A DNA stretch of 64,000 nucleotides. Source: an uncultured Methylomirabilota bacterium (lineage in GTDB: Bacteria; Methylomirabilota; Methylomirabilia; CAVQYV01). This document shows, one piece after another, positions 19,166 through 40,576 of this stretch. Numbering within the stretch: position 1 is the first letter of the stretch; each line of letters starts with the position of its first letter. The position numbers were made by a program, and so were the translations under genes. The notes below the pieces were generated by a model, which was not told where the DNA came from, ran no database searches, and saw nothing but the letters and a program-made list of their open reading frames with translations. The stretch lies in NCBI GenBank assembly GCA_963718295.1, contig CAVQYV010000008.1, positions 79,098 through 143,097 of the forward strand. The letters are read 5' to 3'.

Positions 19166-20302
19166 CTAAGCCGCAGCCGCCAGGGCCGCCTCTATTTCCC
19201 CCCTGGCAAACTCGGACGTCTCCCGGCTCAGACTCGCCTCCAGGATCTGTTTCGCCCGGCTCCCTCCGATCCTTCCCAAAGCCCATGCCGCATAGCCGCG
19301 GACCAGATCTTCCGGGTCTTCCATCGCCTGAGCGAGGGGGGGGATGAAGGTGGGATCGCCCGTGTTCCCCAGGGCAATGGCGGCGTTTCTCTGAAAGTAT
19401 TTCTTTTCCTGAAGATAGTTGTACATGATCGGTTGGACCCGTTTGGCATAGAACTCATCCGAGAGGTTCAGGATCCTGGGGAGATCGAGGTCCTTTGCCA
19501 CATGAGACAAGAACTCATTGGGAGGCAACTCGGCATTCAGCCTGCCCTTGTTTCTGGGACAGACCTCTTGACAGATGTCGCAGCCATGGATGCAGGTACC
19601 CATTTTCTCTCGCATCTCGGGGGAGATGTAGCTGGTAAGTCCTCCCGGTGCCCCGTCCCGAGTCCAGAAGTTATTGAAGGCAATGCAGCGGCGAGGGTCC
19701 ATCTTGAGCGGCTCATAAATGGCTCCGGTTGGACAGGCTTCGATGCAAGATGAACAATGGGTGGGACAGCCGAGCTCTATAGTTGGCTCATCATAGTCCA
19801 GCTTTACATCCACCACCAAAGAGTAGAGGATGATGAATGATCCAATGCCCTCGGCGTAGGCGAAGGTATTCCTTCCGTAAGTGACGACTCCGGCCCGGGC
19901 CCCCGTCAGCCTCTCCGGGACGCAGATTCCCTGACCTATTTGGCATCCATTCCTCTCCAGGAACTCCCGCATCAATCGGTGCCGAGCGCCGTGAATTCGA
20001 TGTTCCGGAGCATTGTAGGATCTCGTAAGGTAGAGGCGGCCGATTTTGCCCACCAGGTTCTCCGGGAAGGACTCCTTCGAGTAATCGTACACTAAAGATA
20101 CGATGGATTTGGCCGAGGGCATGAGGCTCCTCGGGTGGGCGCCCGCGAGGGGTTTCCGGGGCCCTTCGATGAAAAAGGCATACGATTCCCGCCTGGACTC
20201 GAGTTCCTCGATGTAATCGGGGAATCCGTCAGCAGTGGTGAAGCCCACTTTGCTATAGCCCAGGTCGAGGGCGAAGTCCTTTATGTCTTGCGTGAGCGAC
20301 AT
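19166..20302 (-). CDS. queG: epoxyqueuosine reductase QueG-like
   Basis: Two Cys-rich 4Fe-4S motifs (CPTHCSSCIEACP, CIHGCDICQEVCP) followed by a HEAT-like C-terminus (LVRGYAAWALGRIG). Confidence 0.65.
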   Translation of the reverse strand: MSLTQDIKDFALDLGYSKVGFTTADGFPDYIEELESRRESYAFFIEGPRKPLAGAHPRSLMPSAKSIVSLVYDYSKESFPENLVGKIGRLYLTRSYNAPEHRIHGARHRLMREFLERNGCQIGQGICVPERLTGARAGVVTYGRNTFAYAEGIGSFIILYSLVVDVKLDYDEPTIELGCPTHCSSCIEACPTGAIYEPLKMDPRRCIAFNNFWTRDGAPGGLTSYISPEMREKMGTCIHGCDICQEVCPRNKGRLNAELPPNEFLSHVAKDLDLPRILNLSDEFYAKRVQPIMYNYLQEKKYFQRNAAIALGNTGDPTFIPPLAQAMEDPEDLVRGYAAWALGRIGGSRAKQILEASLSRETSEFARGEIEAALAAAA

Positions 20303-20356: not shown

Positions 20357-21508
20357 TCATTTCGCCGGAAATTTTTCTGCCAGATACCGTTCCAGCCTCT
20401 TCATGCCCTCCTCGATGTTCTCGATGGAATTGGCATAAGAGAATCGCAGATAGCCCTCTGCGTTGGAGCCGAAGTCGATCCCGGGGGTGCAGCCGACGCG
20501 GGCCTTTTGCAGGATATCGAAGGCAAATTCAAAGGAATCTGCGCAGAAGCGCTTCGCATTGGCGAGGACATAGAAGGCCCCGGTGGGCTCCACGGTGATC
20601 CCGAATCCCAACTCTCGCAGCTTGGGGATGATGAACTTGCGGCGGCTGGCATAGATGTCCTTCATGCGGGCCACATCCGGTCCCGCTTCCCTGAGGGCGG
20701 CGATTCCGGCCCATTGGACGAAGGCATTGGCGGAGATGAAGAAATTCTGCGTCATCTTTTGCAGGGGCCGGACGAACTCCGGCGGGATGATCAGGTAGCC
20801 GAGGCGCCATCCGGTCATGGCGTAGAGCTTGGAGAAGCCGTTGATCACTATGGCGTTGTGGGTGAATTCCAGGATGGAGTGCTCCTTTCCCTCGTAGACC
20901 AGGCCGTGGTAGATCTCATCGGAGATTACCGTTTTTCCCAATTCTGCAATGGCCTGCATCTTCTCCGGGGGCGTTAGATTTCCAGTGGGATTGGCCGGAG
21001 AGTTGAGAAAAATGGCCTGGGTGCGAGGGCCAATCAGGGCTTTGATCTCCTCCGGACGGTATTGAAAGCCCTCCTCTTCGTAGACATTCAGGAAGGTCGG
21101 CTTTCCCTCCGCCATGAGCACGAAATTGGGATAACAGGCATAGTAGGGATTCGGCAGGATTACTTCGTCCCCGGGCTCCAGCAGGCTCAGAAAGAGGAGA
21201 AGCATCCCGGGCGAGGTCCCCGAGGTGACCAGGATCTGGTCTGGGCTTACCTCCACCCCGTATTGATTGTGATAGTGCTCCGCAATGGCCTCTCGAAGCT
21301 CCAGGACGCCCAGGCTATGGGTGTAATGGGTCTTTCCGTCTCGGATGGCGCGGATCGCCGCCTCCTTGACGCATTCCGGCGTGTCGAAATCCGGCTCGCC
21401 CACCTCCAGGTGCACGATATCCTCTCCTTTGCGCTCCATGGACGCCGCCTTCTCCATCACCTCCATCACAATGAAAGGGGAAATCTCGCCAGACCTCTTG
21501 CTAACCAT
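20357..21508 (-). CDS. pyridoxal-phosphate-dependent aminotransferase, class I
   Basis: GEPDFDTP, PLP-lysine motif NGFSKLYAMTGWRLGY; RBS gggagg before ATG at 21508. Confidence 0.8.
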   Translation of the reverse strand: MVSKRSGEISPFIVMEVMEKAASMERKGEDIVHLEVGEPDFDTPECVKEAAIRAIRDGKTHYTHSLGVLELREAIAEHYHNQYGVEVSPDQILVTSGTSPGMLLLFLSLLEPGDEVILPNPYYACYPNFVLMAEGKPTFLNVYEEEGFQYRPEEIKALIGPRTQAIFLNSPANPTGNLTPPEKMQAIAELGKTVISDEIYHGLVYEGKEHSILEFTHNAIVINGFSKLYAMTGWRLGYLIIPPEFVRPLQKMTQNFFISANAFVQWAGIAALREAGPDVARMKDIYASRRKFIIPKLRELGFGITVEPTGAFYVLANAKRFCADSFEFAFDILQKARVGCTPGIDFGSNAEGYLRFSYANSIENIEEGMKRLERYLAEKFPAK

Positions 21509-22252
21509 GTTTGCCTCCCACCGATTCATTTCACGAGGGTCCCACATGCATGGGCCGTAGCGCTCTTGTACTCAATTCGACGGGGAAAGTCAAGGACCCA
21601 AGCCACTGACGGCTATTGGGCTTGGAGCCCCCGAGCCTGGCCGGCCAAGAGGACACTGATCTTCGCGCGCGGCATGTTCTCTCTCGATCCCATGAGACAG
21701 AGAGGTAACAAAGAGGGCAGTAGACTACCCAGAATGCGGTAGCGCTTCCCCCTTGTATACCTTTATGGCCGAGGGCATGCCGAGAGATCTGCTGAAAGCC
21801 CCGTGGCCCGACTCATCGGTCTTAGCCGCGAGACGATACATGCAATGGCTTGGTTTTTGCAAAAATTGTCCTCCGTAAGCGAGGAAGAAAACCCCATCCC
21901 CAATAGTCCTTCAACAGAGCCATTCACCATGAGAGACATACCATTCAAATTACGCCGAAAGAGCAACCCTGAGGCCATCAAAAGGCGATCCAAGCATTTT
22001 TCTGGGGGCCGCGAAGACGGAAGAGAACTGGACTGGCATAAGAAATCCAAGAGGATGGACAGTTCGCTGCGCGAGGACGATTCCGATTTCGAGAGCCCCT
22101 GGCAATCTCCATTCCCGGCTTGGTGAGCCAGATACTGCTTTGTCCCTGTAGGTGCGGTTTCAGAGTTGAAGGATGGTGTGGATTTCCACTCCAGAGACCA
22201 CATGCTGTGCAGCGCCGCGATAGGAGTATGGTTCAAGGAAGGGAGTGGAGCA

Positions 22253-24087
22253 ATGCGACGGAATCAGATCCAAATGCTCGTAGTTGCAGCTCTTGTTTTC
22301 TTCTCACTCTTGGGTGAGGTAGCACCTTCTGAGGCCTCCACCAGCGTTTTCCAGGGGTTGGAGCGCTACCCCGTGAATGGAAAGGAATGGATACCATTGG
22401 TGGATGGCAAAGCATATTTTCGGGATGCCTTCGTAGGCGGTTTGACAGCCATTCTCGACGCTGCCGATGGGGAGGAATGGGGAGGTTCGGTGGTCCGGCC
22501 TGATGGTTCCTATCTCTACTGGTATCCCATTAGATTCCATTCGAATTACCAGGGTAAATCGGACTGCTTTGTATGCTCGAATTGGCGAGAGCCCGTCTGT
22601 GGCTCGAACAGCATCATGATGCGTTGGTATACGAATGTACGTCCCGATGCGGATAGCGGATTGCCATGCTATCCCACTGGCCTCTGGAGGTATAGCTTCA
22701 CGAAGAACGGCGTTGCCTTTGCTACTCCGGAATTCACGCTTTTGCCACAGATTCCTGGGGTGCCGTGCTTCAGCCAAGGAGACCAGCAACACACCTTAGC
22801 GATTCCATCTGTAAGGGGCCGAGGAGACAATGGTCGCATTACATCCGTTCGCTGCGGCGGAAAGTACCAGATTCCCTGGACGATTGCTGCCAAAGGGTGT
22901 CTCCTGGTTAACGCTGTTATGATTCTACAATACCACGGGGTGACTACAGGGAGTCGACGGCGGAACCTGTGACGCCGGAGAACCTGAATGCCTGGCTAAT
23001 TGAAACAGGGTACGGCTATGACGCCGATAGGTGAACTGAGACTGCCAAAAGCTGAGAAAGTACTCGGGCGGGCAAGTGACATATCGCCAAATGGTCGAGT
23101 TGGATACTGATGTTCCATAGCGATGCTTTCCTTCGAGAAGAAATGTGCAAGTATGGACCTACCGTGATCCGGGTCCAGTTCGCCCGCCGGGTCATCCGGG
23201 GCCACTTCGTGGTAGGCGACTGGGCGGGACTACCCCGCAGGAAAGCACCTGGCTGATTAACGATCCAGCCGGAGGAGAAGTGACTACGTTGGCCCAAATA
23301 TGGAAATCGATACTATTGTCTCCGGAGGTTTACTGGCCCGGAATTTGGTTGGACGGACCGTTTAGTGGACTCAGTATCAAGCTATACTCCCCTGCGGAGT
23401 TCTTCTCACTGACCCGCAGGGACGGCGGACAGGGCGGGACCCCATCAGCAACATGGGCTTACAGGGAGATTCCGCGCTCTGCTTACGTGGACGTCTGCAT
23501 TGCAGATGCGGAGAATGGCGAACTCGTCCCTCCGGTAATGGAACTTGAGGTATTGCGAGCCTATAGACGGGACTTACACCCTACAGGTGACGGGGATTGA
23601 AGCGGGAGGTTACAGTCTCTATATTCGGCCTGAAGATCGGACAGGGGAATCGGCCTCCCAGACGTTGCTCGGGGAGATCCCTACCTATCCAGGTGCTATC
23701 CACAGCTATACTATCGAATACTCTGCTACTCCCGGTGCCATATTGAAGCTCTTCGGTGGCTTTGACGGACACGGCCAAAGGCCCAGTAACGTAAACATGT
23801 TCCTGTCCTACGGCAACCCTATGAGCTCTCGGGTTCAGCTTGAGGCGGGTGAGAAGACATTTCCTCTTGTGATCTTATACGGAGCCACCATTCAGCCGCA
23901 AACCTTTCGGGCTACGCTAAATGGAACGGATATAACGGCCCAGTTCCGCCCTATCCCCGGAGGAACCGAACTGATCAACCTGTCGCTGGATCCTGGCTCA
24001 AACCCATTAGTTCTGTCCGTAGACGGTGCCACCGCCTCGGGCAGGGTGGCCACGGACACGGACCGCTTGGTCTTCCTAGTGCCATGA
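22253..24087 (+). pseudogene. secreted protein with C39-like (papain-fold) peptidase domain plus C-terminal beta-rich module; several frameshifts
   Basis: Signal peptide MRRNQIQMLVVAALVFFSLLGEVAPSEA; peptidase motifs VPCFSQ, KGCLLVNAVMILQYHG, and in a shifted frame GHFVVGDWAG then LINDPAGG; coding continues across at least three frame changes (track ORFs 22166..22972, 23145..23600, 23545..24087). Confidence 0.5.
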
Positions 24088-24952
24088 GATCGGGATTCCT
24101 TTCCTGCATCTTCTTGTTAATTTTGATTATCGCGCCACCGATCAGGCAGCTCGAAATCGGAGCGACCCCCCCAGATCCCCAGCAAACACTCATGGAGAGA
24201 AAGCCGTCCAAAGAGCCCTTTCACAGTCTCACCCTCAGGCTCTTGGGTCTTAAGATGGACCGGATCAGTCAAAATTTGGTGAGCGAGCTTCTTCTGACCG
24301 ATTCCCAGGGGCGGCGAACGGGAACAGACCCCATGGCAAGAGCCAGATATAAGGAAATCCCTCAATCCGCCTACATAGAGGAATATATGGTTCGTCCAAT
24401 GAAAGAGCTTGAGATCTCCAAGCCGCTCGACGGATCATATATCGTTGCAGGTGATCGGGATAAACCGCGGAAGTTACGATTTGTCGACCTATCCGACCGA
24501 CGAAGCCGGAGACTCCCCCAATCAGCCCCGCTTTGATAACATCCCTATCGCACCCCGAATGGTACACGCCTACAAGCTGGACTACACTCGTACCCCTGGA
24601 ATTCCTCTCAAGGTCACCGGCGGCTTCGACGGGGGAGGAAAGGGGCCAACAGATATGAACAACTTCTTGACCTATGCAAATCCCATTTCCACTGAAACCG
24701 ACAATCCGGGCTGGAAAGACCCCCTTTCCTTTGATCCTATTTTATGCCCCCACCATCGATCCCGCTAGCTTCACGGCTACGCTGGATGGCGTCGATATCT
24801 CACGCCGGTTCAAGCCGATCCCCGGTGGCTACCAGGTCATTCCCCTCAAGTTCAGTGTTGGCTCGCATACCCTGATGCTTTCGGTGCAAGGGAAGACCTC
24901 CGGCGGCGAGGCGGCCACGGACACGGACAAGCTCACTTTCTCGGTTCATTGA
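24084..24952 (+). pseudogene. secreted paralog carrying only the C-terminal module of the upstream gene; two frameshifts
   Basis: ATGA start/stop overlap with upstream gene; signal peptide MRSGFLSCIFLLILIIAPP; homology to gene 1 module (GGFDGGGKGP..., ATLDGVDISRRFKPIPGG..., TDTDKLTFSVH) spread over frames at 24084, 24409 and 24674. Confidence 0.45.
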
Positions 24953-24984
24953 TGCGGGAGGGATTGAAAAGAAACCCACAATCC

Positions 24985-25341
24985 ATGAAAACTACCAAAT
25001 TGCTTTGGATTGCTGTGATCTCCGTTATTGTCCTCGCGGCCGGCTATTTGATGGTCTACAGAGGCCGACAGGCGCCGACTACGGTGGCCGCAAATACCGC
25101 GCGGCAAAATGATTCCCAAAATCAGAAGCAGGCGGGTCCGATGGCTCTCTCGGGCAAGGAACAAACGTATATCGTCGCCTCTGACTATGTCTCCGTGCGA
25201 CGGAACCAAACGTGCGTTTGCCGGAAGAGGCCCTCTCCTACAAAGAACTACAAGGAAAGGATCCCCCAAGCCTGGCCCCTTGCCTCTATTATGGAGAAAG
25301 CGTTCTGGGCGAGGCTGATCCCGCCCATCCGGACGTCATAA
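24985..25341 (+). CDS. possible small membrane-anchored hypothetical protein
   Basis: MKTTKLLWIAVISVIVLAAGYLMVYRGRQ N-terminal TM; C-terminal half looks poor; ends just before the REP/RAYT element. Confidence 0.2.
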   Translation: MKTTKLLWIAVISVIVLAAGYLMVYRGRQAPTTVAANTARQNDSQNQKQAGPMALSGKEQTYIVASDYVSVRRNQTCVCRKRPSPTKNYKERIPQAWPLASIMEKAFWARLIPPIRTS

Positions 25342-25371
25342 CTCTTCGCGCCCCGGTTCAGGGATATGCAG

Positions 25372-25809
25372 GAATCAGGGGACATAATACCGATTCTTCC
25401 CTTGCCTTTGTAAGTAGATCCTCATAGCATACCCGTATGGCCCGTATCTCGCGCATCGTCGTTCCGGGTTACCCCCACCATGTAACCCAGCGGGGCGTCC
25501 GCTCGATGGAGGTGTTTCACAGGGATGAGGAACGCCACGCTTACCTTCGGTTTCTTGCCGAGGAGGCAGGCCGCTTCGATGTGGACATCCTCTGCTGGTG
25601 CCTGATGAGCAACCATGTCCATGTCATAGCCGTCCCCCATCAGGAGACCTCTCTTGCCAGGGCGTTCGGCGAGGCGCACCGGCGCTATACCTGATGGAAG
25701 AACTTCGCGGAAGGCGTACGCGGGTATCTCTTCCAGGGACGGTTCAGCTCGTCCGTCCTCGGCGAAGATCACCTGCTTTCTGAATCGGTGAATCAGGGGA
25801 CATAATACC
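25372..25809 (+). mobile_element. REP/RAYT-like element, copy A (carries the transposase ORF; 3' part missing)
   Basis: Starts with gaatcaggggacataatac shared by all three copies; contains the Y1 HUH transposase ORF. Confidence 0.7.
25437..25808 (+). pseudogene. IS200/IS605-superfamily Y1 (HUH) transposase of the REP-associated (RAYT-like) type, nonsense codon and 3' truncation
   Basis: MARISRIVVPGYPHHVTQRGVRSMEVF...LMSNHVHVIAVP (HUH motif) ...RRYT-TGA-WKNFAEGVRGYLFQGRF; in-frame TGA at 25692-25694; ORF ends where copy B begins. Confidence 0.7.
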
Positions 25810-26100
25810 GATTCTTCCCTTGCCTTTGTCAGTAGATTCTCATAGCATACCAGTAGGGCCCGTATCTCGCGCATCGTTGTTCCGGGTTGAAAGGAGTTTC
25901 TTCGCAGCGGAGACGACCAGGCAACGGTCCGGCTCTGGCTGGCGACGCGGACGGGTCGGCCGGCAGGCGGTGAGGAGCTTATTGCCCTAGTGGAACGGCT
26001 GACGGGTCGTGACCTGCGCAAAGGGCCGCCGGGAAGGCCCAGAAAGGCGCAGGCATAAAACAGTATTATGTCCCCGGATTCCCCTGTCCCCGGATTCCCC
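25810..26100 (+). mobile_element. REP/RAYT-like element, copy B (internally deleted derivative, MITE-like)
   Basis: Same 5' end; retains only first about 8 codons (start ATG changed to AGG) fused to transposase C-terminal coding (TRTGRPAGGEELIALVERLTGRDLRKGPPGRPRKAQA); ends gtattatgtcccc plus ggattcccctgtccccggattcccc, inverted relative to the 5' end. Confidence 0.7.
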
Positions 26101-26196
26101 CGGACAAGGCTGATCACTTCATTTTCAGATGTAATAATCATTCGCTTTAGAAGTCTAAGCTGTTCCGAAACCATTTTACAATTAAAGGAGAGGTGT

Positions 26197-27024
26197 ATGA
26201 AAAAGATTTCAGTATTATTCGTCTTAGCGATTCTCTTTGTTTCTTCGATTTCCCTTGCTCAAGAAAAAGATATGAAAGGTTCGCAAGATCATCCGTTGCT
26301 TTCAAGAATTCCTAACTACTACATAAGCGACCAAGCAAAAAAAGATTTCGATAGTTATACATCCCCATACATTGATAAAGATAATGTTTGGGAAGGAAAG
26401 CTCACTCAAACAAATTATTCCGCTAAAGAAGGAACTAAAGAATTAAGCTTCCTTCAGATAGTAAAAAATTATGAAAATGCCATAAAAAAACTGGGCGGAA
26501 AAATATTGTTATCAGAAACTCGAATATTAAACGCTAAGATCGAAAAAAATAAAGGCGTTACTTATGTAAGCGTTGAGGCATTTAATGACGGAAGAAATTA
26601 CACTTTGATTATCGTCGAAAACAAACCGATGGAAGACGAAGTTACTATTGACGCTGCATCTTTGAGTAAAGGTATTTCTGAAACAGGAAAAATTGCTATT
26701 TACGGAATTTATTTTGACACCGGCAAATCAGATATCAAACCGGAATCTAAGCCAACAATTGTTGAAATTGTAAAAATGCTAAAACAAAACTCAAAGCTAA
26801 AGCTTTTTGTTGTTGGGCATACAGATATTGATGGTTCCTTGGAATCAAATATGAAATTATCATCAGGCCGCGCAGCTTCGGTTGTCAAAGCTTTAATTGA
26901 AAATGGAATTCAGGCTTCAAGATTAAAATCTGGTGGAGTTGGACCTTACTGCCCGGTTGAAAGTAATCATACCGAAGGAGGAAAAGCAAAAAACCGTAGA
27001 GTCGAGTTAGTAGAAATGTTTTAA
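26197..27024 (+). CDS. OmpA family protein (lipoprotein-like signal, C-terminal OmpA peptidoglycan-binding domain)
   Basis: MKKISVLFVLAILFVSSISLA signal; C-terminal IYFDTGKSDIKPES...LFVVGHTDIDGSLESNMKLSSGRAASV...NRRVELVEMF; AT-rich codon usage unlike the rest of the window; RBS aaaggagagg. Confidence 0.85.
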   Translation: MKKISVLFVLAILFVSSISLAQEKDMKGSQDHPLLSRIPNYYISDQAKKDFDSYTSPYIDKDNVWEGKLTQTNYSAKEGTKELSFLQIVKNYENAIKKLGGKILLSETRILNAKIEKNKGVTYVSVEAFNDGRNYTLIIVENKPMEDEVTIDAASLSKGISETGKIAIYGIYFDTGKSDIKPESKPTIVEIVKMLKQNSKLKLFVVGHTDIDGSLESNMKLSSGRAASVVKALIENGIQASRLKSGGVGPYCPVESNHTEGGKAKNRRVELVEMF

Positions 27025-27178
27025 ACTCATTTTCAACAGTCTCCGCGCTTATCCACAGACCTGCTGTCAGTAAAATCCACGACTTAAGATGATCCGCGTC
27101 CTTCTCTCACCCGAAAAGTAGTGCTAACTATGTGTATTTTGCCCTTACAACTGCCCTTCTTTCCGGCATCCTGGGGCC

Positions 27179-28613
27179 ATGTTCGTCAGGCTCAAGAGCT
27201 ATTTATCTAAAGGCAACAGATACGAATATCTCCAGATCGTCGAATCCTATCGGGATCACGGTGCCGTCCGCCAGAGAGTCGTGTCTAATATCGGCCGGCT
27301 CGATCTGCTGGCCGCCTCCGAGCAACTCGATCAGATCGTTTCGGGCCTCTCCCGCTACAGCGAGGCCTACCGTGGATTTCAAGCCTTCCTCCGGGGGAGC
27401 TGGAAGGATGTACCGCCCGCACCTGGGGACCCTGCCGATCTTTGGCCGGCTCTGGGAGGATCAGCGGCTGCCGGAGGTGATCCGGCATCTGGCCCAGGGA
27501 CGAGGGTTCCAGTTCGAAGTGGAACGAGCGGTCTTCGCCCTGGCGCTGCAACGGCTCTGTGCCCCGGGAGCGATCTTTCCGGTCGAGGATGGCTGGAGAC
27601 GGTAGAGGCCCCCGGATTGCAGGCATTGCGCCTGCAGCATCTGTACCGGACCTGCACGTTCCTGGCCGGGATCCGGGAAGAGCTGGAGCGGGAGCTCTTC
27701 TTCCGGGACCGGGATCTCTTCTCCCAGGAGCTGGACCTGGTCTTCCTGGACACCACCTCCACCTATGTGTACCGGGATCAGGAGACGCCCTATCGGCGAC
27801 GGGGGTTCTCCCGGGATCGCCGGGCCGATCTGCCCCAGTTCGTCCTGTGCGTGGCGGTGGATGCCAAGGGGTGGCCCGTAGCCTGGGAGATCTATCCGGG
27901 CAACACGGCGGACGGGGTCGCCCTGGAGCGGATCGTGGGAGCCCTGCGGGAGCGCTTTCGGATTCGGCGGGCCATCGTGGTGGCCGACCGGGGGATGATG
28001 TCCCGGGAGACGATCCGGCTGCTGGAGGCACACCCGGCCCCCTTCGACTACATCCTGGGCTGTCGGATGCGAGAACAAAAGGAGGTACGCGAAGAGGTGC
28101 TGGCCCGGGTGGGCCGCTACCAGGTCGTAGCCGGGAACCTGGAGGTGAAAGAGGTGAGCGTAGGAGGCAAGCGCTACCTCGTCTGCCGCAACCCGGAGGA
28201 GGTCCAGAAGGATCAGGCGGCCCGGGAGGCTATCCTGGCCCAGCTGGAGGAGGTCCTCTCTCAGGGTCCAAGGGACTCATGGCCAACAAGGGGTATAGGC
28301 GTTTCCTGAAGATCGGGAAAGGCTCGGTGCGCATCGATCCTTTGGCCGTCGAGCAGGATGCCCGCCTGGACGGCAAGTTCGTGCTGGCCACCAATACCGA
28401 TTGCCCGCAGCGGAGGTGGCCCGAAGCTACAAGAGCCTCTGGCGGGTGGAGCGTACCTTTCGCGAGGAGAAATCTACCTTGGAGGTGCGGCCATCTATCA
28501 CCATCGGGATGACACCTGCATCGGCACATCGTCGCCTCCTTTTGGCCCTGCGCCTGGAGGTGGACCTGCAACGGAGACTGGAGGAGAAGGAAATCGAGGC
28601 CCGGCCCAGCTGA
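27179..28613 (+). pseudogene. IS4-superfamily (IS1634-family-like) DDE transposase, multiply frameshifted
   Basis: N-terminus MFVRLKSYLSKGNRYEYLQIVESYRDHGAVRQRVVSNIGRLD; DDE region LVFLDTTSTYVY...VVADRGMMS; C-terminal segments DGKFVLATN and YKSLWRVERTFREEKSTLEVRP lie in two further frames. Confidence 0.55.
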
Positions 28614-28881
28614 TGCAACAGCTTTCCAGGTGCAGGCGGTGCACATCGGCCTGGGGGACGACACTTCCTCCACGGACATCTGGGTCCGCTTCTCTCGCCT
28701 TCCAGGCGGTGGGCATGCGTCCCCGCCGGATGGTGGAGATGGAGGGAGGAAGATGTAGTGCCAAGAATTGGAGCTAAGCGAATCTGCTAAATAATAAGTA
28801 CAGAAAGGCAGGAAGAGAAAAGCAATATGTATCAAGGCCTTTGGCCCCCTCCATACTGTTTCAGGAAGGTGTGCCATCCTT

Positions 28882-28964
28882 GGAAGAATCAGGGGACATG
28901 GAAGAATCAGGGAAGAATCAGGGGACATGGAAGAATCAGGGGACATGGAAGAATCAGGGGACAT
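28882..28964 (+). repeat. about 4.6 tandem copies of an 18-bp unit (ggaagaatcaggggacat) at the 5' end of element copy C
   Basis: Directly visible; unit equals the element 5' terminal sequence. Confidence 0.8.
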
Positions 28965-29262
28965 AATACCGATTCTTCCCTTGCCTTTATCAGTAGATTC
29001 TCATCGCATACCAGTATGGCCCGTATCCCGCGCATCGTTGTTCCGGGTTGAAAGGAGTTTCTTCGCAGCGGAGACGACCAGGGGACGGTCCGGCTCTGGC
29101 TGGCGACGCGGACGGGGCGGCCGGCAGGCGGTGAGGAGTTTATTGCCCTAGTGGAACGGCTGACGGGTCGTGACCTGCGCAAAGGGCGGCCGGGAAGGCC
29201 CAGAAAGGCGCAGGCATAAAAACAGTATTATGTCCCCGGATTCCCCTGTCCCCGGATTCCCC
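28882..29262 (+). mobile_element. REP/RAYT-like element, copy C (internally deleted derivative, MITE-like)
   Basis: Near-identical to copy B over about 300 bp, including start ATG, the same internal deletion and the same 3' end (gtattatgtccccggattcccctgtccccggattcccc). Confidence 0.7.
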
Positions 29263-29491
29263 ACAGGGGTTTTTGAACCCGAGCCTCTTGACATTCATGG
29301 GGGCGACCCACTCCCGCACCCTTCTTTCCGCCTCTTCCAGATCCTTCACGATCTTGTTGACCCCGCAGACCAAAATCACCTTCCTGGGTCCGAAGGTCAT
29401 CGCCGCCACTCGATTGCCCGTGCCATCAATGTTGAAGAGCTTGCCGTCTTCCGTTACCGCATTGCTGCTGCCAACAAACACATCGGCCAGA
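29263..29491 (-). pseudogene. internal fragment of an LUD-domain gene (duplicate of part of 34018..34674)
   Basis: About 230 bp roughly 90 percent identical to 34146..34371; encodes ADVFVGSSNAVTEDGKLFNIDGTGNRVAAMTFGPRKVILVCGVNKIVKDLEEAERRVREWVAPMNVKRLGFKNPC; bounded by element copy C and the Kelch gene 1 leader. Confidence 0.55.
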
Positions 29492-29667
29492 TGCATGCGT
29501 GATGATACGAGGTGCAACGGGAACTGCGGAGGTCCAACGGGCCTCTCATCTTGCAGGCATTGAAAGCCAATGGCCTATTTCTTGCTGAGGTCGATTTAAC
29601 AGCCTACTGGAAAGATCGTTCAGGTGGCATCCGAAGACCCGAGCGGAGATCAGAAAGGAGGAGCAAG

Positions 29668-31799
29668 GTGAAACGGAAAAGCTCCACCTCGCTGCAATTC
29701 ATTCTCTTGGTTCCCCTGTCTCTCATCATCCTTTTCGCCGCTTCCAGCCAAGGGGCAGAGCAATGGAAGGACACTTTTGTGGGTGTCCCCCGAGCGAGCG
29801 GTCCCGCCATCTGGACCGGCACGGAGATGATCGTCTGGGGAGGCACCTATTACTATAGAAGCGGAGGACGCTTCAACCCCTCCACGGACGCTTGGACACC
29901 TATTTCCAACGCCAGGGCACCGCTGCCCGGGTATGCCCACACCGCCATCTGGACCGGCACGGAGATGATCATCTGGGGAAGTGGTAGCAACAGCGGCGGA
30001 CGGTACAATCCGACTACCGATACCTGGACTCCCGCTTCGACTGCCGGAGCGCCATCACCAAGATCTGGCCACACCGCCATCTGGACCGGCACGGAGATGA
30101 TCGTCTGGGGAGGGTATGACGGCAGTTCCTATCTCAACACCGGCGCCCGCTACAATCCCACCACCAACACCTGGATTCCTCTCCCCACGGTCGGGGCACC
30201 AAGGATGAGGGAAGACCACACCGCGGTCTGGACCGGCAGCCAGATGGTTGTGTGGGGAGGGAGCAGTGCAGGAGGGCGCAAGAACACGGGCGGACGGTAC
30301 AATCCGACTACCGATACCTGGACTCCCACCTCGACTGCCAGTGCGCCATCACCAAGATCTGGCCACACCGCCATCTGGACCGGCACGGAGATGATCGTCT
30401 GGGGAGGGTATGACGGCAGCTCCTATCTCAATACGGGCGCCCTCTACAATCCGACTACCGATACCTGGACTCCCACCTCGACTGCCAGTGCGCCAGCGCC
30501 AAGATATGCCCACACCGCCATCTGGACCGGCACGGAGATGATCGTCTGGGGAGGTGGCAGCAACACCGGCGCCCTCTACAATCCGACTACCGATACCTGG
30601 ACTCCCACCTCGACTGCCAGTGCGCCAGCGCCAAGATATGCCCACACCGCCATCTGGACCGGCACGGAGATGATCGTCTGGGGAGGACACGGCAGTTTCT
30701 ATCCCGACACGGGGCCCGCTACAATCCCACCACCAACACCTGGAGGGGAATGTCCCTTGAGTACTGTCCCGAGCCCAGAGGGGATCACACCGCCATCTGG
30801 ACCGGCACGGAGATGGTCGTCTGGGGGGGGTATAACGGGTATCTCGCGGGATGGGGAGGCCACTATATCCCCCTCACGGATACGTGGAAATGGGGGGAAC
30901 CCCTAACCACAATGTGGTACCCCCCAGGGCACAGACGAGGTCACACCGCCGTCTGGACCGGCACTTGGATGATCCTCTGGGGAGGGTATGGGTACGATAA
31001 TTTTTGCGGGGGCTTTATTACATACCTCAACGACGGCAGCTTCTACTTGCCTTCTATGTATCCGGTTAATACATGGTATCGGATCTATTCCCTGGGGGCG
31101 CCACAGGCAAGATGTTGGCACACCGCCATCTGGACCGGCAGGAAGATGATCGTCTGGGGAGGATACGACGGCCGAACCTATTTCATCACCGGCGGGCGCT
31201 TCAGCCCGGAGACAAATATTTGGCAAGGCACGTCCACCGAAGGGGCACCGAGAGGAAGGTCCCGGCACACCGCCATCTGGACCGGCAAAGAGATGATCGT
31301 CTGGGGAGGACTTGATCGCACGGCCTCGTTCAACACGGGCGGGCGCTACCGCCCCAGCACCGATACCTGGTCTCCCACCTCGACTGCCAGTGCGCCATCA
31401 CCAAGATCTGGCCACACCGCCATTTGGACCGGGAAGGAAATGATCGTCTGGGGAGGGTATGACGGCAGCTCCTATCTCAACACCGGCGCCCGCTACAATC
31501 CGACTACCGATACCTGGTCTCCCATTTCCACCGCCGGTGCGCCATCACCAAGATCCGGCCATACCGCGGTCTGGACCGGCACCCAAATGATCGTGTGGGG
31601 CGGCAAGAATGCCTCTGGTTGCATGAGAACCGGGGGCCGCTACGACCCCGTCACGGACACCTGGACCCCCACCACCCTGAAGCTGGCACCCGTGGGAAGG
31701 GCCCATCACACCGCCATTTGGACTGGCACGGAGATGGTCGTCTGGGGAGGGATGAATGGTGGCTTCTACCTCAACACGGGTGGCCGCTATACCCCTTGA
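29668..31799 (+). CDS. secreted Kelch-repeat (beta-propeller) protein, paralog 1; one frameshift near 30713
   Basis: GTG start after RBS aaaggagga; signal peptide KRKSSTSLQFILLVPLSLIILFAASSQGA; about 13 repeats of the RYNPTTDTWTP...APSPRSGHTAIWTGTEMIVWGG unit; frame change between track ORFs 29512..30906 and 30750..31799. Confidence 0.6.
30436..30686 (+). repeat. perfect intragenic tandem duplication (119 bp identical, 132-bp period) inside Kelch gene 1
   Basis: ggcgccctctacaatccgactaccgatacctggactccc...gatcgtctggggagg occurs at 30436 and again at 30568. Confidence 0.75.
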
Positions 31800-31848
31800 T
31801 TCCAGCGAAATCGGAAGAATCCAGCGGAGGTCGGAAAGGAGGAACAAG

Positions 31849-33978
31849 GTGAAACGGAGGAGCTTCACCTCTCGGCAATTGGTTTTCTTGGCCTCGTTCT
31901 CTCTCATCGTGCTTTTAGCCGCTTCCGGCCAGGCAACGGAGGAATGGAAGGGCACTCCTGTGGGCGCCCCCTGGGTGGACCGTGGTCAAACCGCCATCTG
32001 GACCGGCACAGAGATGATCGTCTGGGGAGGAACCTATCACTATAGAGGGGGAGGGTGCTACAACCTTGCCACCGACACCTGGAGACCCATTTCCAACACC
32101 AAGGCGCCGAGGGCTGAATACGACCACATAGCGGTTTGGACGGGCACGGAGATGATCATCTGGGTGGGAGCCAACAACACCGGCGGCCGTTATGACCCCG
32201 CCATGGACAGGTGGTCTCCCATTTCCACCGCCGGTGCGCCATCACCAAGATCATGGCCATACCGCCGTCTGGACCGGCACGGAGATGATCATCTGGGGAG
32301 GGTATGACGGCAGCTCCTATCTCAACACGGGCGCCCGCTACAATCCGACTACCGATACCTGGTCTTCCATTTCGACCGCGGTGCGCCAACCGCGGGCCAC
32401 ACCGCCATCTGGACCGGCACGGAGATGATCATCTGGGGAGGTGGCAGCAACACCGGCGGCCGCTATGACCCCGCTACCGATACCTGGTCTCCCATTTCCA
32501 CCGCCGGTGCGCCATCACCAAGATCTAGCCATACCGTGGTCTGGACCGGCACGGAGATGATCATCTGGGGAGGGTATGACGGCACTTGGCTCAACTCGGG
32601 AGGCCGCTACGATCCTACCGGCGATACCTGGATCTCCACTTCGGTAACAGGCGCGCCCAAGGCGAGAATTGCCCACACCGCCATCTGGACCGGCAGTCAG
32701 ATGGTTGTGTGGGGAGGGAACGGTGCAAGAGGGCACAAGAAGACCGGTGGACGCTACGATCCGACGAGCGACGCCTGGACAGCTACCTCCACCCTTGGGG
32801 CGCCTGAAGGGAGGGTTTATCATACGGCGCTCTGGACGGGAAGGAGATGATCGTGTGGGGCGGGAGACGGCAGCTCGTATCCGAACGACAGCGGCGGACG
32901 CTACGATCCCGCTGCCAACGCTTGGAGCAAGATCTCCCATGATAGGAGTCCTGAGGAGAGACGCGATCACACCGCCGTCTGGACCGGCACGGAGATGATC
33001 GTGTGGGGTGGGTATAACGGGGATCATCTGGGATGGGGCGGCCACTATATCCCCCTGACGGATACCTGGACCCGGACGGAACCCCCCTCTGGTTTTCTCC
33101 GAGGTGGGGGGAGGAAGGACCACACCGCCGTCTGGACCGGCACGGAGATGATCGTCTGGGGAGGCTATGGGGACGGCAGTTGCGGATGCACTCCATACCT
33201 CAACAGCGGCGCGCGCTACCGGCCCGCGTTTTATCCCGATGATACCCGTGCCTGGCTTGGGATGTCTTACCTGGGGGCACCACAGGCAAGGCGTTGGCAC
33301 ACCGCCGTCTGGACCGGCGGGAAGATGATCGTCTGGGGAGGGTATGACGGCCGAACCCACCTTACCACCGGCGGGCGCTACAACCCGGAGACGGATATCT
33401 GGCAGGGCACCTCCACCGAAGGGGCCCCCAAAGGCAGGTCCCGGCATACTGCAATCTGGACCGGGAAGGAAATGATCGTCTGGGGAGGGCTTGGTCGCAG
33501 CGCCTCGTTCAACACGGGCGGGCGCTACCGCTTCAATACCAATACCTGGACTCCCACCTCGACCGATGGAGCGCCATCTCCAAGATATAGCCATACCGCC
33601 ATCTGGACCGGCAAAGAGATGATCGTCTGGGGAGGGTATGACGGCAGCTCCTATCTCAACACGGGCGGCCGCTACAATCCGACTACCGATACCTGGACTC
33701 CCCTCTCCACGATCGGGGCACCCACGATGAGGAAGGACCACACCGCGGTCTGGACCGGAAGCCAGATGATCGTGTGGGGCGGCAAGAATGCCTCTGGTTA
33801 CATGAGAAGCGGAGGCCGCTACGACCCCGTCACGGACACCTGGACCCCAACCACCGTGAAGCTGGCACCCGTGGGAAGGGTCCATCACACTGCCATTTGG
33901 ACTGGCACGGAGATGATCATTTGGGGAGGAATTAGCGGTGGCTTCTACCTCGAAACAGGTGGCCGCTATACCCCTTGA
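31849..33978 (+). pseudogene. secreted Kelch-repeat protein, paralog 2; at least four frameshifts
   Basis: Same leader and GTG start (ggaaaggaggaacaaggtg), same signal peptide type and repeat unit; coding alternates among track ORFs 31756..32307, 32192..32428, 32425..32850, 32995..33978; one break is a G-run length change (acgggaaggag versus expected acggggaaggag). Confidence 0.5.
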
Positions 33979-34017
33979 TTCCAAGGGGAGAAATAGGGAC
34001 CCCTTGGGGTCGGCCGC

Positions 34018-34674
34018 TCAGAACCCCAAAGGTTCCCCGACCAGCAGGACGGTGTAATCCGTCCGCAGGGGTTTCTTGGCCAATACGGTGTAGATGTTAC
34101 AGATCCTCTGGGGAGAGTTGCAGTCCGCGCATTGGCCCGTCTCCGCACAGGGGTTTTTGAATCCGAGCCGTTTGACATTCATCGGGGAGACCCACTCCCG
34201 AACCCTTCTTTCCGCCTCTTCCAGATCCTTCACGATCTTGTTGACCCCACACACCAAAATCACCTTCCTGGGTCCGAAGGTCATCGCCGCCACTCGATTG
34301 CCCGTGCCATCGATGTTGAAGAGCTTCCCGTCCTCGGTCACCGCATTGCTGCTGGCGACGAACACATCGGCCAGAAGGATCTCGCGGCGGATCCTCAATC
34401 CGTCCTCTGCCGAAAGTCCCGGTGCAAAGGGATGTAGCAGCTGGATGGGATGTTTCTTTGCCTCCTCGAAGAATCCGATCTGACTCAGGGTGATAGAGCC
34501 TCCGATTCCCACCTTCGCCCCTTCGGGAATCCTCTTGAAGACCTCCCCCGCGGCATCCGAGGCCTGGGGAATGAATTCCGCATCGAACCTGTTCTTTCTG
34601 AGCGCCTTAAGGGTCCTTTCCACCTGATGTTCCTGAAACCACTTATGGTATTCCGTCATTGCTGAAACCTCCAT
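34018..34674 (-). CDS. LUD domain (lactate-utilisation LutB/LutC-like, DUF162) protein
   Basis: 218 aa; GIGGSITLSQIG...LLADVFVASSNAVTEDGKLFNIDGTGNRVAAMTFGPRKVILVCGVNKIV typical of LUD/YkgG-like proteins. Confidence 0.65.
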   Translation of the reverse strand: MEVSAMTEYHKWFQEHQVERTLKALRKNRFDAEFIPQASDAAGEVFKRIPEGAKVGIGGSITLSQIGFFEEAKKHPIQLLHPFAPGLSAEDGLRIRREILLADVFVASSNAVTEDGKLFNIDGTGNRVAAMTFGPRKVILVCGVNKIVKDLEEAERRVREWVSPMNVKRLGFKNPCAETGQCADCNSPQRICNIYTVLAKKPLRTDYTVLLVGEPLGF

Positions 34675-35026
34675 CGCAGGATCCTCCTCCTCATCTTTGT
34701 GGCCAGAGCATATGCAGTATGAGAGTCATGGATTACATGGGTGAGGTTGTCCATAAAGCTATCAACTTTCGGGAGCGAGAACAACCCGAAACTTGTTCCG
34801 AAGGAGGGGGATCTCCGCTCTTACCCGGATCTCAAAAATGTTGACAAGTAGAGGCGAGAGGAGTAGATACCCAAGGGGGCAAGGGGGGCGCCACCCGTGC
34901 AATTCGGACTGCGTGGGATAGTTCAATCCCTTTTGAGCCAGCCGGGGCCTTTTCGAAAGGCCGGCACTTCGATTGGAGCCACACCGGTCAGGCGTGATGT
35001 ATTCTCTCATATGTCAGGAGGTTGCC

Positions 35027-35602
35027 ATGAAGAAAGCCATCCATTTCACCTTGGGAGCTCTCATCCTCTCTGCCCTTTCCGTGGGAATTGGCTTGCCCGA
35101 TCAGGCCTCTGCCACAGACGCCTCCCAAAGCACCAAGGATATCGAAAGGGCGTGGTTGCTCAAACAAGCCCTTCCCGGAGCGGATCGTTTCGAGAGCAGA
35201 GACGAGGGAGGAATCCCATACGAGATCGCCTATCGAGAAGAGGAAGTCATGGGCGGGGTGTTCTACACTGACGGCATGGGCTATGGGGGCACGATGCGGT
35301 TTATGGTGGGCCTCGACCCCGAGGGGAAGGTGGTCGAGATCGTCCTGGTGTCCCATAGGGAGAGCAAGGGGCTGGGGACCAAGGTCGCCGATCCCGTGTT
35401 CCTCTCCCAATTCCGCGGGAGGGGAGGACCTTTTGTCCTCAAGAGGGATCATCCCTCAGGAAACATCGATGGGGTGGCCGGGGCCACACTCTCCAGTCGC
35501 GGGGTGGTCATGGCCGTCGAAGAAGCGGTGAAGACCTTCCATCGCGTTTGGAAAGCGGAGGAGGGGACACCCCCGATTCCCCCTGCCAAGGGACAAGAGT
35601 GA
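35027..35602 (+). CDS. FMN-binding domain protein (exported)
   Basis: RBS caggagg before ATG at 35027; signal peptide MKKAIHFTLGALILSALSVGIG; C-terminal VDGVAGATLSSRGVVMAVEEAV resembles the FMN_bind covalent-flavinylation region. Confidence 0.55.
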   Translation: MKKAIHFTLGALILSALSVGIGLPDQASATDASQSTKDIERAWLLKQALPGADRFESRDEGGIPYEIAYREEEVMGGVFYTDGMGYGGTMRFMVGLDPEGKVVEIVLVSHRESKGLGTKVADPVFLSQFRGRGGPFVLKRDHPSGNIDGVAGATLSSRGVVMAVEEAVKTFHRVWKAEEGTPPIPPAKGQE

Positions 35603-38333: not shown

Positions 38334-39074
38334 TCACTCGACCTCCGTGCAAAGGATCTGCGCCAATTGGCGGGCGCCTCTCACCATGGTGAGATGGCCG
38401 ACGCCTCTCAGCTTGTGAATCCTGGCGTGGGGCCAGGCCTGCTGAAGATATGCTACGGACCGGCGAACCGCGGCAAAGGTCTGGATTCCATAAGCGAGAT
38501 CCACTGGAAGATTCAGGTCTCGGAGTGACCCATGTCCCTTGAATTGACCGAATAGGTGGAGGTAGTTGAGGGTTGCCTGATGATTCACATGGACGAAGGC
38601 CTCGGTGAAGTTGCCGTCCGTGGGTTGCCTATTTTGAAGGACCCGATTCACGATTCTTCGCCCCACGGGACCGGCGAAAGAGACGTAATAGGCCCGGCGG
38701 CCGAACTCACCCAGGGTGAACAGTTTGAAATACCAGGGGAGATAGGTGAAGGGATCGACCAAAACCAGCCGCCGAATGCGGCTTTTCCGCTCCCGCGCCA
38801 GTAGCATGGCGAGGAATGCCCCGCTGCAGAAACCGATCAGGGTGGAATCGCCGTGGGTCGCCTCATCGATAACAGCCGCCAATTCTTCGGTGATCAGGGA
38901 GAGATCCCAACGAGCGGGAAGAGGGGATTGGCCGTAGCCGGGCAGATCCACGCTGAGGAGCCTCATCCCTTGGGGAAGCCGGCTCGCCAATGGGGCAAAT
39001 TCACGATGGTCTCCCCCCCATCCGTGAATGGCCAGAATGGTTTTTGAGCCTTCGCCGTACTGCTTAACGTGCAT
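38334..39074 (-). CDS. alpha/beta hydrolase fold protein
   Basis: HGWGGD oxyanion region; nucleophile elbow reads GFCSG (Cys where Ser is usual). Confidence 0.75.
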   Translation of the reverse strand: MHVKQYGEGSKTILAIHGWGGDHREFAPLASRLPQGMRLLSVDLPGYGQSPLPARWDLSLITEELAAVIDEATHGDSTLIGFCSGAFLAMLLARERKSRIRRLVLVDPFTYLPWYFKLFTLGEFGRRAYYVSFAGPVGRRIVNRVLQNRQPTDGNFTEAFVHVNHQATLNYLHLFGQFKGHGSLRDLNLPVDLAYGIQTFAAVRRSVAYLQQAWPHARIHKLRGVGHLTMVRGARQLAQILCTEVE

Positions 39075-40569: not shown

Positions 40570-40576
40570 GAAGAAA

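What the first reader, a model, noticed from the sequence alone, without database searches (positions are those of the whole stretch)
29262..29491. About 230 bp of the LUD-domain gene duplicated next to element copy C and the Kelch gene 1 leader
29262..29491 is roughly 90 percent identical to 34146..34371 inside the intact LUD gene. The copy starts exactly where element copy C ends and stops at the Kelch gene 1 leader. This suggests the element inserted into, or recombined with, a duplicated Kelch-LUD junction, and documents rearrangement in this island.
Basis: seen in the sequence. Interest (0 to 1): 0.45.

Follow-up and report, generated by a model that had tools for sequence, protein, structure and literature searches.

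The report
Relic of a second LUD gene
The 239-bp repeat is real, but it is the decayed middle piece of a second, once-working copy of the LUD-domain gene, cut down on both sides next to a small mobile element, which is an ordinary kind of genomic scar.

Summary
Window 29258-29496 matches 34142-34380 without gaps, 220/239 identical (92%). The matched stretch is codons 99-177 of the intact LUD-domain gene (34018-34674, minus strand). The copy begins where miniature element C ends (29262). It stops 75 nt upstream of a sigma-54-like promoter motif in the Kelch gene 1 leader.

This is not a recent duplicate of a Kelch-LUD junction. In the 76 core codons, 14 of 16 differences are synonymous (dS 0.33, dN 0.011). 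All six changes unique to the fragment are silent. The divergence equals that between the intact gene and its orthologues in related populations. So the fragment comes from a second LUD gene that evolved as a working gene for a long time and was truncated recently.

A related metagenomic contig (L066) carries the same order: element, near full-length LUD (already with a stop and an 81-nt deletion), then the homologous leader. Relative to L066, the window lost about 0.2 kb on the element side and about 0.4 kb on the leader side.

The remnant sits in a 12.4-kb variable insert between an aminotransferase gene and the intact LUD gene. It is most likely non-functional, although the source record calls it a 118-aa CDS. 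Low interest.

The parts
29258..29496 (-). LUD-domain gene relic, codons 99-177 of a second LUD copy
   Evidence: 92% ungapped match to 34142-34380. Pfam LUD_dom partial hit, profile positions 83-158 of 189. dS 0.33, dN 0.011 against the intact gene.
29140..29496 (-). 118-aa ORF called as a CDS in the source record (P0241). Its ATG lies at the right junction. The first 79 codons are LUD-derived and the last ~40 are read from the antisense of element C.
   Evidence: P0241 is 100% identical and sits on a 696,518-bp NCBI/ENA contig; translation. By my reading there is no GGAG-type ribosome-binding site upstream.
34018..34674 (-). Intact LUD-domain gene (218-aa ORF; called as 213 aa from 34659 in the source record)
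   Evidence: PF02589 full length, E=4.7e-46. L098 is 95.2% identical over 34002-35117 and L099 93.3% over 33998-34798. P0302 look-up.
28951..29262 (+). Element copy C: a ~312-bp internal-deletion derivative of a Y1 (IS200/RAYT-like) transposase element, with terminal inverted repeats
   Evidence: 97% and 100% identical to copy B (D7 and D14). Inverted repeats GAATCAGGGGACATAATACCGATT / AAACAGTATTATGTCCCCGGATTC (I6). Translation keeps the first 11 and last ~55 codons of the transposase.
28883..28950 (+). Three to four extra tandem copies of the left inverted-repeat core (GGAAGAATCAGGGGACAT) in front of element C
   Evidence: I17-I19
25790..26100 (+). Element copy B (miniature, same internal deletion as C)
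25371..25782 (+). Element copy A: left end plus the 5' ~115 codons of the Y1 transposase gene (one in-frame stop), cut off by copy B
   Evidence: 90.5% over 412 nt to the ~750-bp element in L025. Y1_Tnp 27 bits against a cut-off of 23 when the stop is read through. REP_Tyr_transpos 31 bits, below the cut-off of 80.
29497..29667 (+). Kelch gene 1 leader with a sigma-54-like promoter motif, TGGCCTATTTCTTGCT, at 29571-29586
   Evidence: 29511-29592 is homologous to the end of L066 beyond its LUD gene: local score 74 against shuffles of 16 +/- 2. Motif search.
29629..33983 (+). Kelch-repeat gene cluster, a head-to-tail tandem duplication (29629-31804 and 31810-33983)
   Evidence: 77.5% over 2214 nt. 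Kelch Pfam hits. The first gene of unit 2 is broken into several ORFs.
21599..33997 (.). Variable insert that holds the relic, lying between the aminotransferase gene and the intact LUD gene
   Evidence: In L022, L024, L025 and L023, LUD is followed directly by the aminotransferase and a QueG-like gene. The aminotransferase-side spacer is conserved to 21598. L099 shares only 20 nt beyond the LUD stop, back to 33998.

Best explanation
29258-29496 is a non-functional relic (codons 99-177) of a second LUD-domain gene. That gene lay on the minus strand, head to head with the promoter leader of the Kelch cluster, with a Y1-transposase element at its 3' side. It was a working gene for most of its history, whether as an old paralogue or as a copy acquired from a close relative. 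It was recently cut down by two deletions. One, of about 0.2 kb (codons 178-218 plus the 3' spacer), ends exactly at the right end of miniature element C. The other, of about 0.4 kb (codons 1-98 plus ~110-130 nt of upstream DNA), joins codon 99 to the leader, possibly across a short A(A/T)GGAT microhomology. The intact gene at 34018-34674, paired with an RnfG-like FMN-binding gene, is the copy kept in the nearest relatives.

Shown: the repeat, its reading frame, the selective signature and the shared gene order in L066. Inferred: that the ends were lost by deletion, the order of events and the present lack of function.
For: (1) Selection signature. In codons 101-176 there are 14 synonymous and 2 non-synonymous differences (dS 0.33, dN 0.011, dN/dS 0.035). 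P(<=2 of 16 non-synonymous) is 5.6e-5 even if only the fragment had been neutral since the split. Both non-synonymous changes are derived in the intact gene. The six changes unique to the fragment are all third-position silent changes (0.23^6 = 1.5e-4 under neutrality).

(2) Depth of the split. dS between fragment and intact gene (0.33) is at least as large as between the intact gene and L098 (0.27), L099 (0.30) or L022 (0.25). The fragment lacks Ala107, which the window gene, L098, L099 and P0001 share. In a neighbour-joining tree it falls outside (L098,(L099,window LUD)). No fragment+intact pair appeared among the clades recovered in at least 11% of 1000 bootstraps. Element copies B and C differ by only ~3%.

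(3) Conserved gene order. In window orientation, L066 reads: element (right end towards LUD), 90 nt, LUD on the minus strand, 128 nt, then the homologue of window 29511-29592. Its LUD 5' end is of the window type: 87.5% to the window gene against 73% to L025.

(4) Decay in parallel. The L066 copy carries a TAG at codon 12 and an 81-nt deletion.

(5) The fragment keeps only profile positions 83-158 of 189 of the LUD domain. It lacks the C-terminal Cys-rich tail, and its ORF runs into antisense element sequence.
Against: L066 is a 1.5-kb metagenomic contig whose LUD gene is a sharp mosaic: the middle is 100%/99.5% identical to L025 and the ends are of the window type. It could therefore be partly chimeric, and its element-LUD and LUD-leader adjacencies might belong to different copies. 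L066 ends inside the leader, so it is not shown that Kelch genes follow there. The leader match is only 78% over 82 nt. Phylogenetic support from 227 sites is weak (54-55%). No close relative with an intact second copy upstream of a Kelch cluster was found. Zero non-synonymous change in the fragment lineage would also fit continuing selection on the 118-aa ORF.
Confidence: 0.68

Rival explanations
1. Displacement by homology-facilitated illegitimate recombination. DNA from a related organism carrying [LUD + Kelch cluster] recombined homologously on the FMN-binding-gene/LUD 5' side and joined illegitimately at codon 99 of the resident LUD. The resident 3' part was left as an orphan downstream of the incoming intact gene, and element C later removed codons 178-218.
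For: The geometry fits: the relic lies downstream of the intact gene, in the same orientation, with the Kelch 'cargo' between them. Divergence at the level of related populations under purifying selection is what a xenologue would show. The DNA downstream of LUD differs in every relative examined: aminotransferase in L022-L025, element/DASS-type transporter in L066, unrelated sequence in L099, Kelch here. The mechanism is documented elsewhere (PMC3240628), and sequential displacement leaving gene remnants is described in PMC5361080.
Against: Under this model the codon-99/leader joint would be a novel illegitimate junction, so no other genome should have a LUD 5' end next to this leader. L066 has exactly that. 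The aminotransferase-proximal spacer ends at 21598, 7.7 kb from the relic, so further events are needed. The intact gene shows no clear mosaic boundary against L098/L099.
Confidence: 0.15
2. One reading: a recent local duplication of a ~230-bp Kelch-LUD junction piece into which the element inserted, the copy then drifting neutrally.
For: Two copies 4.9 kb apart in direct orientation in a repeat-rich stretch; one end coincides with the end of a mobile element.
Against: 14:2 synonymous to non-synonymous, P=5.6e-5 to 9e-8 under neutral models. dS 0.33 is about ten times the divergence between element copies B and C. No part of the real Kelch-LUD junction (33979-34017) is duplicated. The fragment is not sister to the intact gene.
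Confidence: 0.07
3. Assembly artefact: the fragment is a strain variant of the single LUD gene, mis-joined into the contig at repeats.
For: Element C is a repeat (97% to B), and the source is probably a metagenome-derived contig. Related LUD alleles co-occur in metagenomes, and L066 looks mosaic.
Against: Neither junction lies in sequence shared with the intact locus. The right junction (29496/29497) is unique sequence on both sides. The fragment has six private substitutions. The contig is 696.5 kb long. An independent assembly from another project shows the same order of neighbours.
Confidence: 0.05
4. The 118-aa ORF (P0241) is a functional truncated LUD-derived protein that is still under selection.
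For: No non-synonymous change is private to the fragment. An ATG sits exactly at the junction and the ORF is open for 118 codons. It is called as a gene in the source record.
Against: It keeps under half of the domain and has lost the conserved Cys-rich C-terminus. Its last ~40 residues are antisense element sequence. I see no Shine-Dalgarno motif upstream. The three junction-proximal differences are all non-synonymous. The equivalent copy in L066 is decaying.
Confidence: 0.05

Closest known systems
Bacterial pseudogene remnants (gene relics) next to insertion sequences or MITE-like elements in variable chromosomal regions
   Same: An internal piece of a coding sequence with both ends missing. 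One end abuts the terminus of a mobile element. It lies in a stretch that also holds an IS1634-family transposase and foreign low-GC DNA, and an automatic gene caller still reports it as a short ORF.
   Different: The relic sits only 4.9 kb from an intact copy of the same gene. It shows almost no neutral decay, so the loss is recent relative to a deep split between the two copies (dS 0.33).
Stand-alone LUD-domain proteins (Pfam PF02589, formerly DUF162; sources label them 'lactate utilization protein', as for P0005 and P0015)
   Same: The intact gene is a full-length member (E=4.7e-46). The relic matches the central third of the same profile.
   Different: The relic lacks profile positions 1-82 and 159-189. 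No NCBIfam model and no solved structure by sequence matches even the intact protein, so its biochemical role here is unknown.
RAYT / IS200-like Y1 (HUH) transposase elements and their non-autonomous derivatives (REPINs; PMC3116915, PMC3337134, PMC5581495)
   Same: The element next to the relic encodes a Y1_Tnp-type protein. It is flanked by inverted repeats, shows no target duplication, and occurs as short non-coding derivatives (copies B and C, and those in L022, L024 and L066).
   Different: It scores far below the curated RAYT cut-off (31-33 bits against 80). The short copies are internal-deletion derivatives that keep both ends of the transposase gene, rather than REP doublets. The gene-bearing form is itself multi-copy and decayed, unlike typical single-copy RAYTs.
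Orphan gene fragments left by sequential displacement or homology-facilitated illegitimate recombination (PMC5361080, PMC3240628)
   Same: A same-orientation partial copy lies downstream of an intact gene, with cargo genes between them.
   Different: The piece is internal rather than a 3' end, and L066 shows that the LUD-leader adjacency pre-exists elsewhere. That favours deletion from a full-length second copy.

Membership tests
LUD-domain gene (PF02589): intact member | Full-length match to the LUD_dom profile above the gathering score | tested here: met
   34018-34674: 157 bits against a cut-off of 22.6, profile positions 1-189 of 189.
LUD-domain gene: the fragment as a functional member | Complete domain with N-terminal half and C-terminal Cys-rich segment | tested here: not met
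   Only profile positions 83-158 of 189 are present. Homology stops at codons 99 and 177.
Pseudogene relic of a once-functional gene | Divergence from its nearest intact relative dominated by synonymous change (past purifying selection), combined with truncation | tested here: met
   Sd=14, Nd=2, dN/dS 0.035; truncated at both ends.
Pseudogene relic of a once-functional gene | Not expressed as a functional product | not testable with these tools
   No transcript or proteome data. There are only indirect signs: no ribosome-binding site seen, and an antisense-element tail.
Recent intragenomic segmental duplication | The copy is the closest relative of its in-genome partner, and differences are spread evenly over codon positions | tested here: not met
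   14 of 19 differences are at third positions. The fragment is placed outside the clade of window LUD, L098 and L099, with weak support. dS is as large as to orthologues in other populations.
Recent intragenomic segmental duplication | Flanking sequence of the source junction (Kelch 3' end / LUD 3' end) is included in the copy | tested here: not met
   Homology ends at 34142 and 34380, well inside the gene.
IS200/IS605-RAYT superfamily (Y1 HUH transposase) for the adjacent element | Y1_Tnp domain with HUH motif | tested here: met
   Copy A scores 27 bits against a cut-off of 23 with its stop read through, and the motif SNHVHV is present. The uninterrupted 85-aa ORF alone scores 22.4 bits, just under the cut-off.
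Curated REP-associated tyrosine transposase (NF047646) | Score above the NCBIfam equivalog cut-off (80 bits) | tested here: not met
   29-33 bits.
MITE-like non-autonomous derivative (element copies B and C) | Terminal inverted repeats retained, internal coding region deleted, several copies | tested here: met
   Inverted repeats of 24-34 nt. Only ~66 of ~220 codons remain. Copies B and C are in the window, with further copies in L022, L024 and L066.
MITE-like non-autonomous derivative (element copies B and C) | Target-site duplication | tested here: not met
   No direct repeat flanks B or C. This is expected for Y1 transposases, so it is not disqualifying for that class.
Sigma-54 promoter in the Kelch leader | TGGC-N7-TTGCW with GG/GC spacing, conserved in a relative | tested here: met
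   29571-29586: 5 matches in the window against 1.2 expected. L066 has TGGCCCATTTCTTGCT. Function was not tested.

The most novel reading that the evidence does not exclude
The complete absence of amino-acid change in the fragment lineage may not reflect a very recent truncation. Instead the 118-aa ORF (ATG created at the junction, LUD core, element-antisense tail) could be translated and kept by selection as a new mini-protein. Alternatively, the 239-bp direct repeats could be kept as a recombination substrate that excises the Kelch cluster.
Probability: 0.05. Interest if true: 0.45.

Novelty: new member of a known kind. Interest (0 to 1): 0.17.

Why it matters
Mostly for annotation and for reading the history of this locus. 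The source record's 118-aa 'LUD domain' CDS should be flagged as a pseudogene.

The relic also dates events. The lineage carried two LUD genes for a long time (dS 0.33) and lost one recently, at about the time the Y1-transposase mini-elements were active (their copies are 97% alike).

The DNA just downstream of the LUD gene is a recombination hot spot whose content differs in every relative examined.

The two 92%-identical direct repeats flank the 4.6-kb Kelch cluster. Recombination between them could delete the cluster, which would also destroy the intact LUD gene.

None of this changes what is known about gene decay.

Tried and rejected
(1) A third LUD remnant next to the aminotransferase gene. 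A visual resemblance at 21600-21660 gave no protein-level hit. Only the spacer motif (TACTCA..GAAAGTCAAGGACC) aligned (score 33 against a shuffle maximum of 35). It is kept as a synteny marker only.

(2) The idea that the left junction formed through similarity between the right end of the element and the LUD sequence at 34111-34141. The alignment was 17/23, but 60 of 1000 shuffles score as well, so it was rejected.

(3) Leader homology to the LUD/FMN-binding-gene intergenic region (34675-35000): none.

(4) A search for Kelch gene 1 orthologues, to see what lies upstream in relatives. The best hit is 59% identity on repeats, with no orthologue.

(5) Exact look-ups of the source contig failed. 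Only cluster membership showed a 696.5-kb NCBI/ENA record. No DNA is available for the contig of P0001 (94% amino-acid identity).

(6) tRNA or ncRNA at the insert borders: none.

(7) PHROGs and PADLOC on the seven hypothetical ORFs at 21763-25341: nothing.

(8) PDB sequence search with the intact LUD protein: nothing.

(9) An antisense-UTR idea, that the Kelch mRNA carries anti-LUD sequence. The conserved sigma-54-like promoter lies downstream of the fragment, so the fragment is probably not in that transcript.

Full report
**Observation**

The repeat is real. The repeat finder lists 29258-29496 and 34142-34380 as a two-copy direct repeat of 239 nt at 92% (D9). My own count is 220/239 identical, with no indel and an offset of 4884. 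Similarity collapses immediately outside both ends.

The partner lies inside a 218-aa minus-strand ORF (34018-34674) that matches the whole Pfam LUD domain (PF02589, E=4.7e-46). The ORF over the copy (29140-29517) matches only profile positions 83-158 of 189. The copy corresponds to codons 99-177 and is in the same orientation as the intact gene.

**Boundaries**

*Left.* Copies B (25790-26100) and C (28951-29262) of a short element are 97-100% identical up to 26100/29262 and then diverge (D7 and D14). LUD homology begins at 29258-29263.

*Right.* Homology ends at 29491-29496. Kelch gene 1 most plausibly starts at the GTG at 29668, which has a GGAG upstream and is followed by a signal-peptide-like N-terminus. 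A sigma-54-type motif, TGGCCTATTTCTTGCT, lies at 29571-29586; the window has 5 such matches against 1.2 expected.

**The element**

Copy A (25371-25782) carries the left end and ~115 codons of a Y1/HUH transposase, MARISRIVVPGYPHHVTQRG...SNHVHV. It scores Y1_Tnp 27 bits against a cut-off of 23 when its single stop is read through. It scores REP-associated tyrosine transposase 31 bits, well under the cut-off of 80.

A ~750-bp version with a full-length but decayed gene sits in the related contig L025. Copies B and C keep the first 11 and last ~55 codons and the 24-34-nt terminal inverted repeats. They are MITE-like internal-deletion derivatives without target duplications.

**The copy is not a recent duplicate**

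- Of the 19 differences, 14 are at third codon positions.
- In the 76 complete core codons, Nei-Gojobori counts are Sd=14 and Nd=2, giving dS=0.33, dN=0.011 and dN/dS=0.035.
- If the fragment had been neutral since the split while the intact gene was fully constrained, 62% of differences should be non-synonymous. P(<=2 of 16) is then 5.6e-5; with both copies neutral it is 9e-8.
- With outgroups, both non-synonymous changes (G107A, A163S) are derived in the intact gene.
- The six changes private to the fragment are all silent (0.23^6 = 1.5e-4).
- dS to the intact gene is as large as from the intact gene to its orthologues in L098 (0.27), L099 (0.30) and L022 (0.25).
- The fragment carries window-type diagnostic states (Val106, Leu150) but lacks Ala107, which the window gene, L098, L099 and P0001 share.
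- In a neighbour-joining tree it is sister to (L098,(L099,window LUD)) with weak support of 54-55%. A fragment+intact pair was not among the clades recovered in at least 11% of 1000 bootstraps.
- By contrast, element copies B and C differ by only ~3%.

The parent of the fragment was therefore a working gene for a long time, and it was truncated only recently.

**Context**

In L022, L024, L025 and L023 (LUD 86-88% nucleotide identity), LUD is followed directly by an aminotransferase gene and a QueG-like Fe-S/HEAT gene. In the window those genes are at 20357-21547 and 19166-20302. The aminotransferase-side spacer is recognisable up to 21598.

The nearest relatives of the intact locus are L098 (95.2% over 34002-35117, including the divergent RnfG-like FMN-binding gene at 34973-35602) and L099 (93.3%). 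L099 shares only 20 nt beyond the LUD stop codon, back to 33998, and then differs.

So 21599-33997 (12.4 kb) is variable DNA. In order it holds:

- seven ORFs with no family match;
- elements A and B;
- an OmpA-family gene at 33-37% GC, against 57% for the window;
- an IS1634-family transposase;
- element C;
- the relic;
- the Kelch cluster, itself a 2.2-kb tandem duplication at 77.5% identity with a frameshifted second unit.

There are no tRNA or Rfam hits.

**The related locus L066**

L066 is a 1.5-kb contig from a JGI metagenome. In window orientation it reads:

- the end of a transporter gene;
- a mini element with its right end facing LUD;
- 90 nt;
- a minus-strand LUD gene;
- 128 nt;
- 82 nt homologous to window 29511-29592, including the sigma-54-like motif (78% identity; local score 74 against shuffles of 16 +/- 2).

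This is the same order and orientation as element C, relic and leader in the window. Relative to L066, the window lacks about 213 nt on the element side and about 0.4 kb on the leader side. The right joint may lie in a short A(A/T)GGAT microhomology, but this is tentative at 78% identity.

The L066 LUD copy is itself decaying. It has a TAG at codon 12 and an 81-nt deletion of codons 165-191.

One caveat applies. The L066 gene is a sharp mosaic: nt 136-492 are 100%/99.5% identical to L025, while nt 16-135 are 87.5% identical to the window gene and 73% to L025. This could be gene conversion or a chimeric assembly. Even so, the LUD 5' end to leader adjacency lies in contiguous, non-repeated sequence.

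**Interpretation**

The best reading (about 0.68) is a relic of a second LUD gene that stood head to head with the Kelch leader and lost both ends by deletion, one of them bounded by element C. Whether that second gene was an old paralogue or came from a close relative cannot be decided.

The rivals are:

- *Displacement by homology-facilitated illegitimate recombination (0.15).* The geometry fits, but L066 argues against a novel joint at codon 99.
- *A recent partial duplication, as first proposed (0.07).* The selection signature contradicts this, and no part of the tail-to-tail Kelch-LUD junction is copied.
- *Mis-assembly (0.05).* Both junctions are in unique sequence, the fragment has private substitutions, the contig is 696.5 kb, and an independent assembly shows the same neighbours.
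- *A functional 118-aa ORF (0.05).*

The source record does call that ORF as a gene (P0241). Its ATG arises from a junction-proximal G-to-C change, and its last ~40 residues are antisense element sequence.

**Comparison with known kinds, and verdict**

This is an ordinary gene remnant beside a mobile element. The adjacent element belongs to the Y1 (IS200/RAYT-like) superfamily but fails the curated RAYT threshold. It behaves as a decayed multi-copy element with MITE-like derivatives rather than as a single-copy RAYT with REPINs (PMC3116915, PMC5581495).

The feature is a new instance of a known phenomenon and is of low interest. Its main uses are to flag the CDS call as a pseudogene and to serve as a marker of the locus's history.

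Noticed in passing
window 25371-26100 and 28883-29262; L022, L024, L025, L066: A family of ~750-bp elements with a Y1 (IS200/RAYT-like) transposase gene and 24-34-nt terminal inverted repeats. It also has ~312-bp derivatives that keep both ends of the gene. An element lies next to the LUD gene in L022, L024, L025 and L066 and next to the LUD relic in the window; none is seen beside the window's intact LUD gene or in the short L023, L098 and L099 contigs. In the window's 64 kb the element occurs only in this insert.
   Followed up: partly
window 28883-28964: The left inverted-repeat core of element C (GGAAGAATCAGGGGACAT) is tandemly repeated four to five times (spacings 29, 18, 18). Copies A and B have a single copy.
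   Followed up: no
window 26068-27024: An OmpA-family lipoprotein-like gene with 33-37% GC and GC3 of 0.30, in a 57% GC window. It lies between element B and an IS1634-family transposase gene and is clearly foreign DNA.
   Followed up: partly
window 27179-28777: An IS1634-family transposase (187 bits). It is apparently interrupted: an in-frame stop at 28307-28309 is followed by a same-frame ORF at 28358-28777. The IS ends were not defined.
   Followed up: no
window 29629-33983: The Kelch-repeat cluster is a head-to-tail tandem duplication of a two-gene unit (2.2 kb, 77.5% identity). The duplication starts just after the sigma-54-like promoter. The first gene of the second unit is split into several ORFs.
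   Followed up: partly
window 29571-29586; also 21846-21861 (+) and 21962-21977 (-): Sigma-54-type promoter motifs (TGGC-N7-TTGCW). The one in the Kelch leader is conserved in L066. Two more lie at the left edge of the variable insert. The window has 5 matches against 1.2 expected.
   Followed up: partly
L066 (whole contig) against L025: The L066 LUD gene switches abruptly from 73% to 100% identity with L025 at about nt 136 of the coding sequence and back again near nt 492. This is either gene conversion between LUD copies or a chimeric metagenome assembly.
   Followed up: partly
window 33998-34017; L098, L099, L022, L066: The DNA immediately downstream of the LUD stop codon differs in almost every relative: aminotransferase, element plus transporter, unrelated sequence, or Kelch. 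Here a hairpin (CCAAGGGG...CCCCTTGG at 33980-34007) is formed partly from the shared 20 nt. This looks like a recombination hot spot.
   Followed up: partly
window 38334-44315: A carotenoid-type gene cluster on the minus strand: two amine-oxidase/phytoene-desaturase-like genes, a squalene/phytoene synthase and a Caroten_synth-family gene, with an alpha/beta hydrolase beside them. It is unrelated to the finding.
   Followed up: no
window 32515-33984 (-): A 489-aa ORF runs antisense through the Kelch genes. It is a likely artefact of the repeat's codon structure and could mislead gene callers.
   Followed up: no
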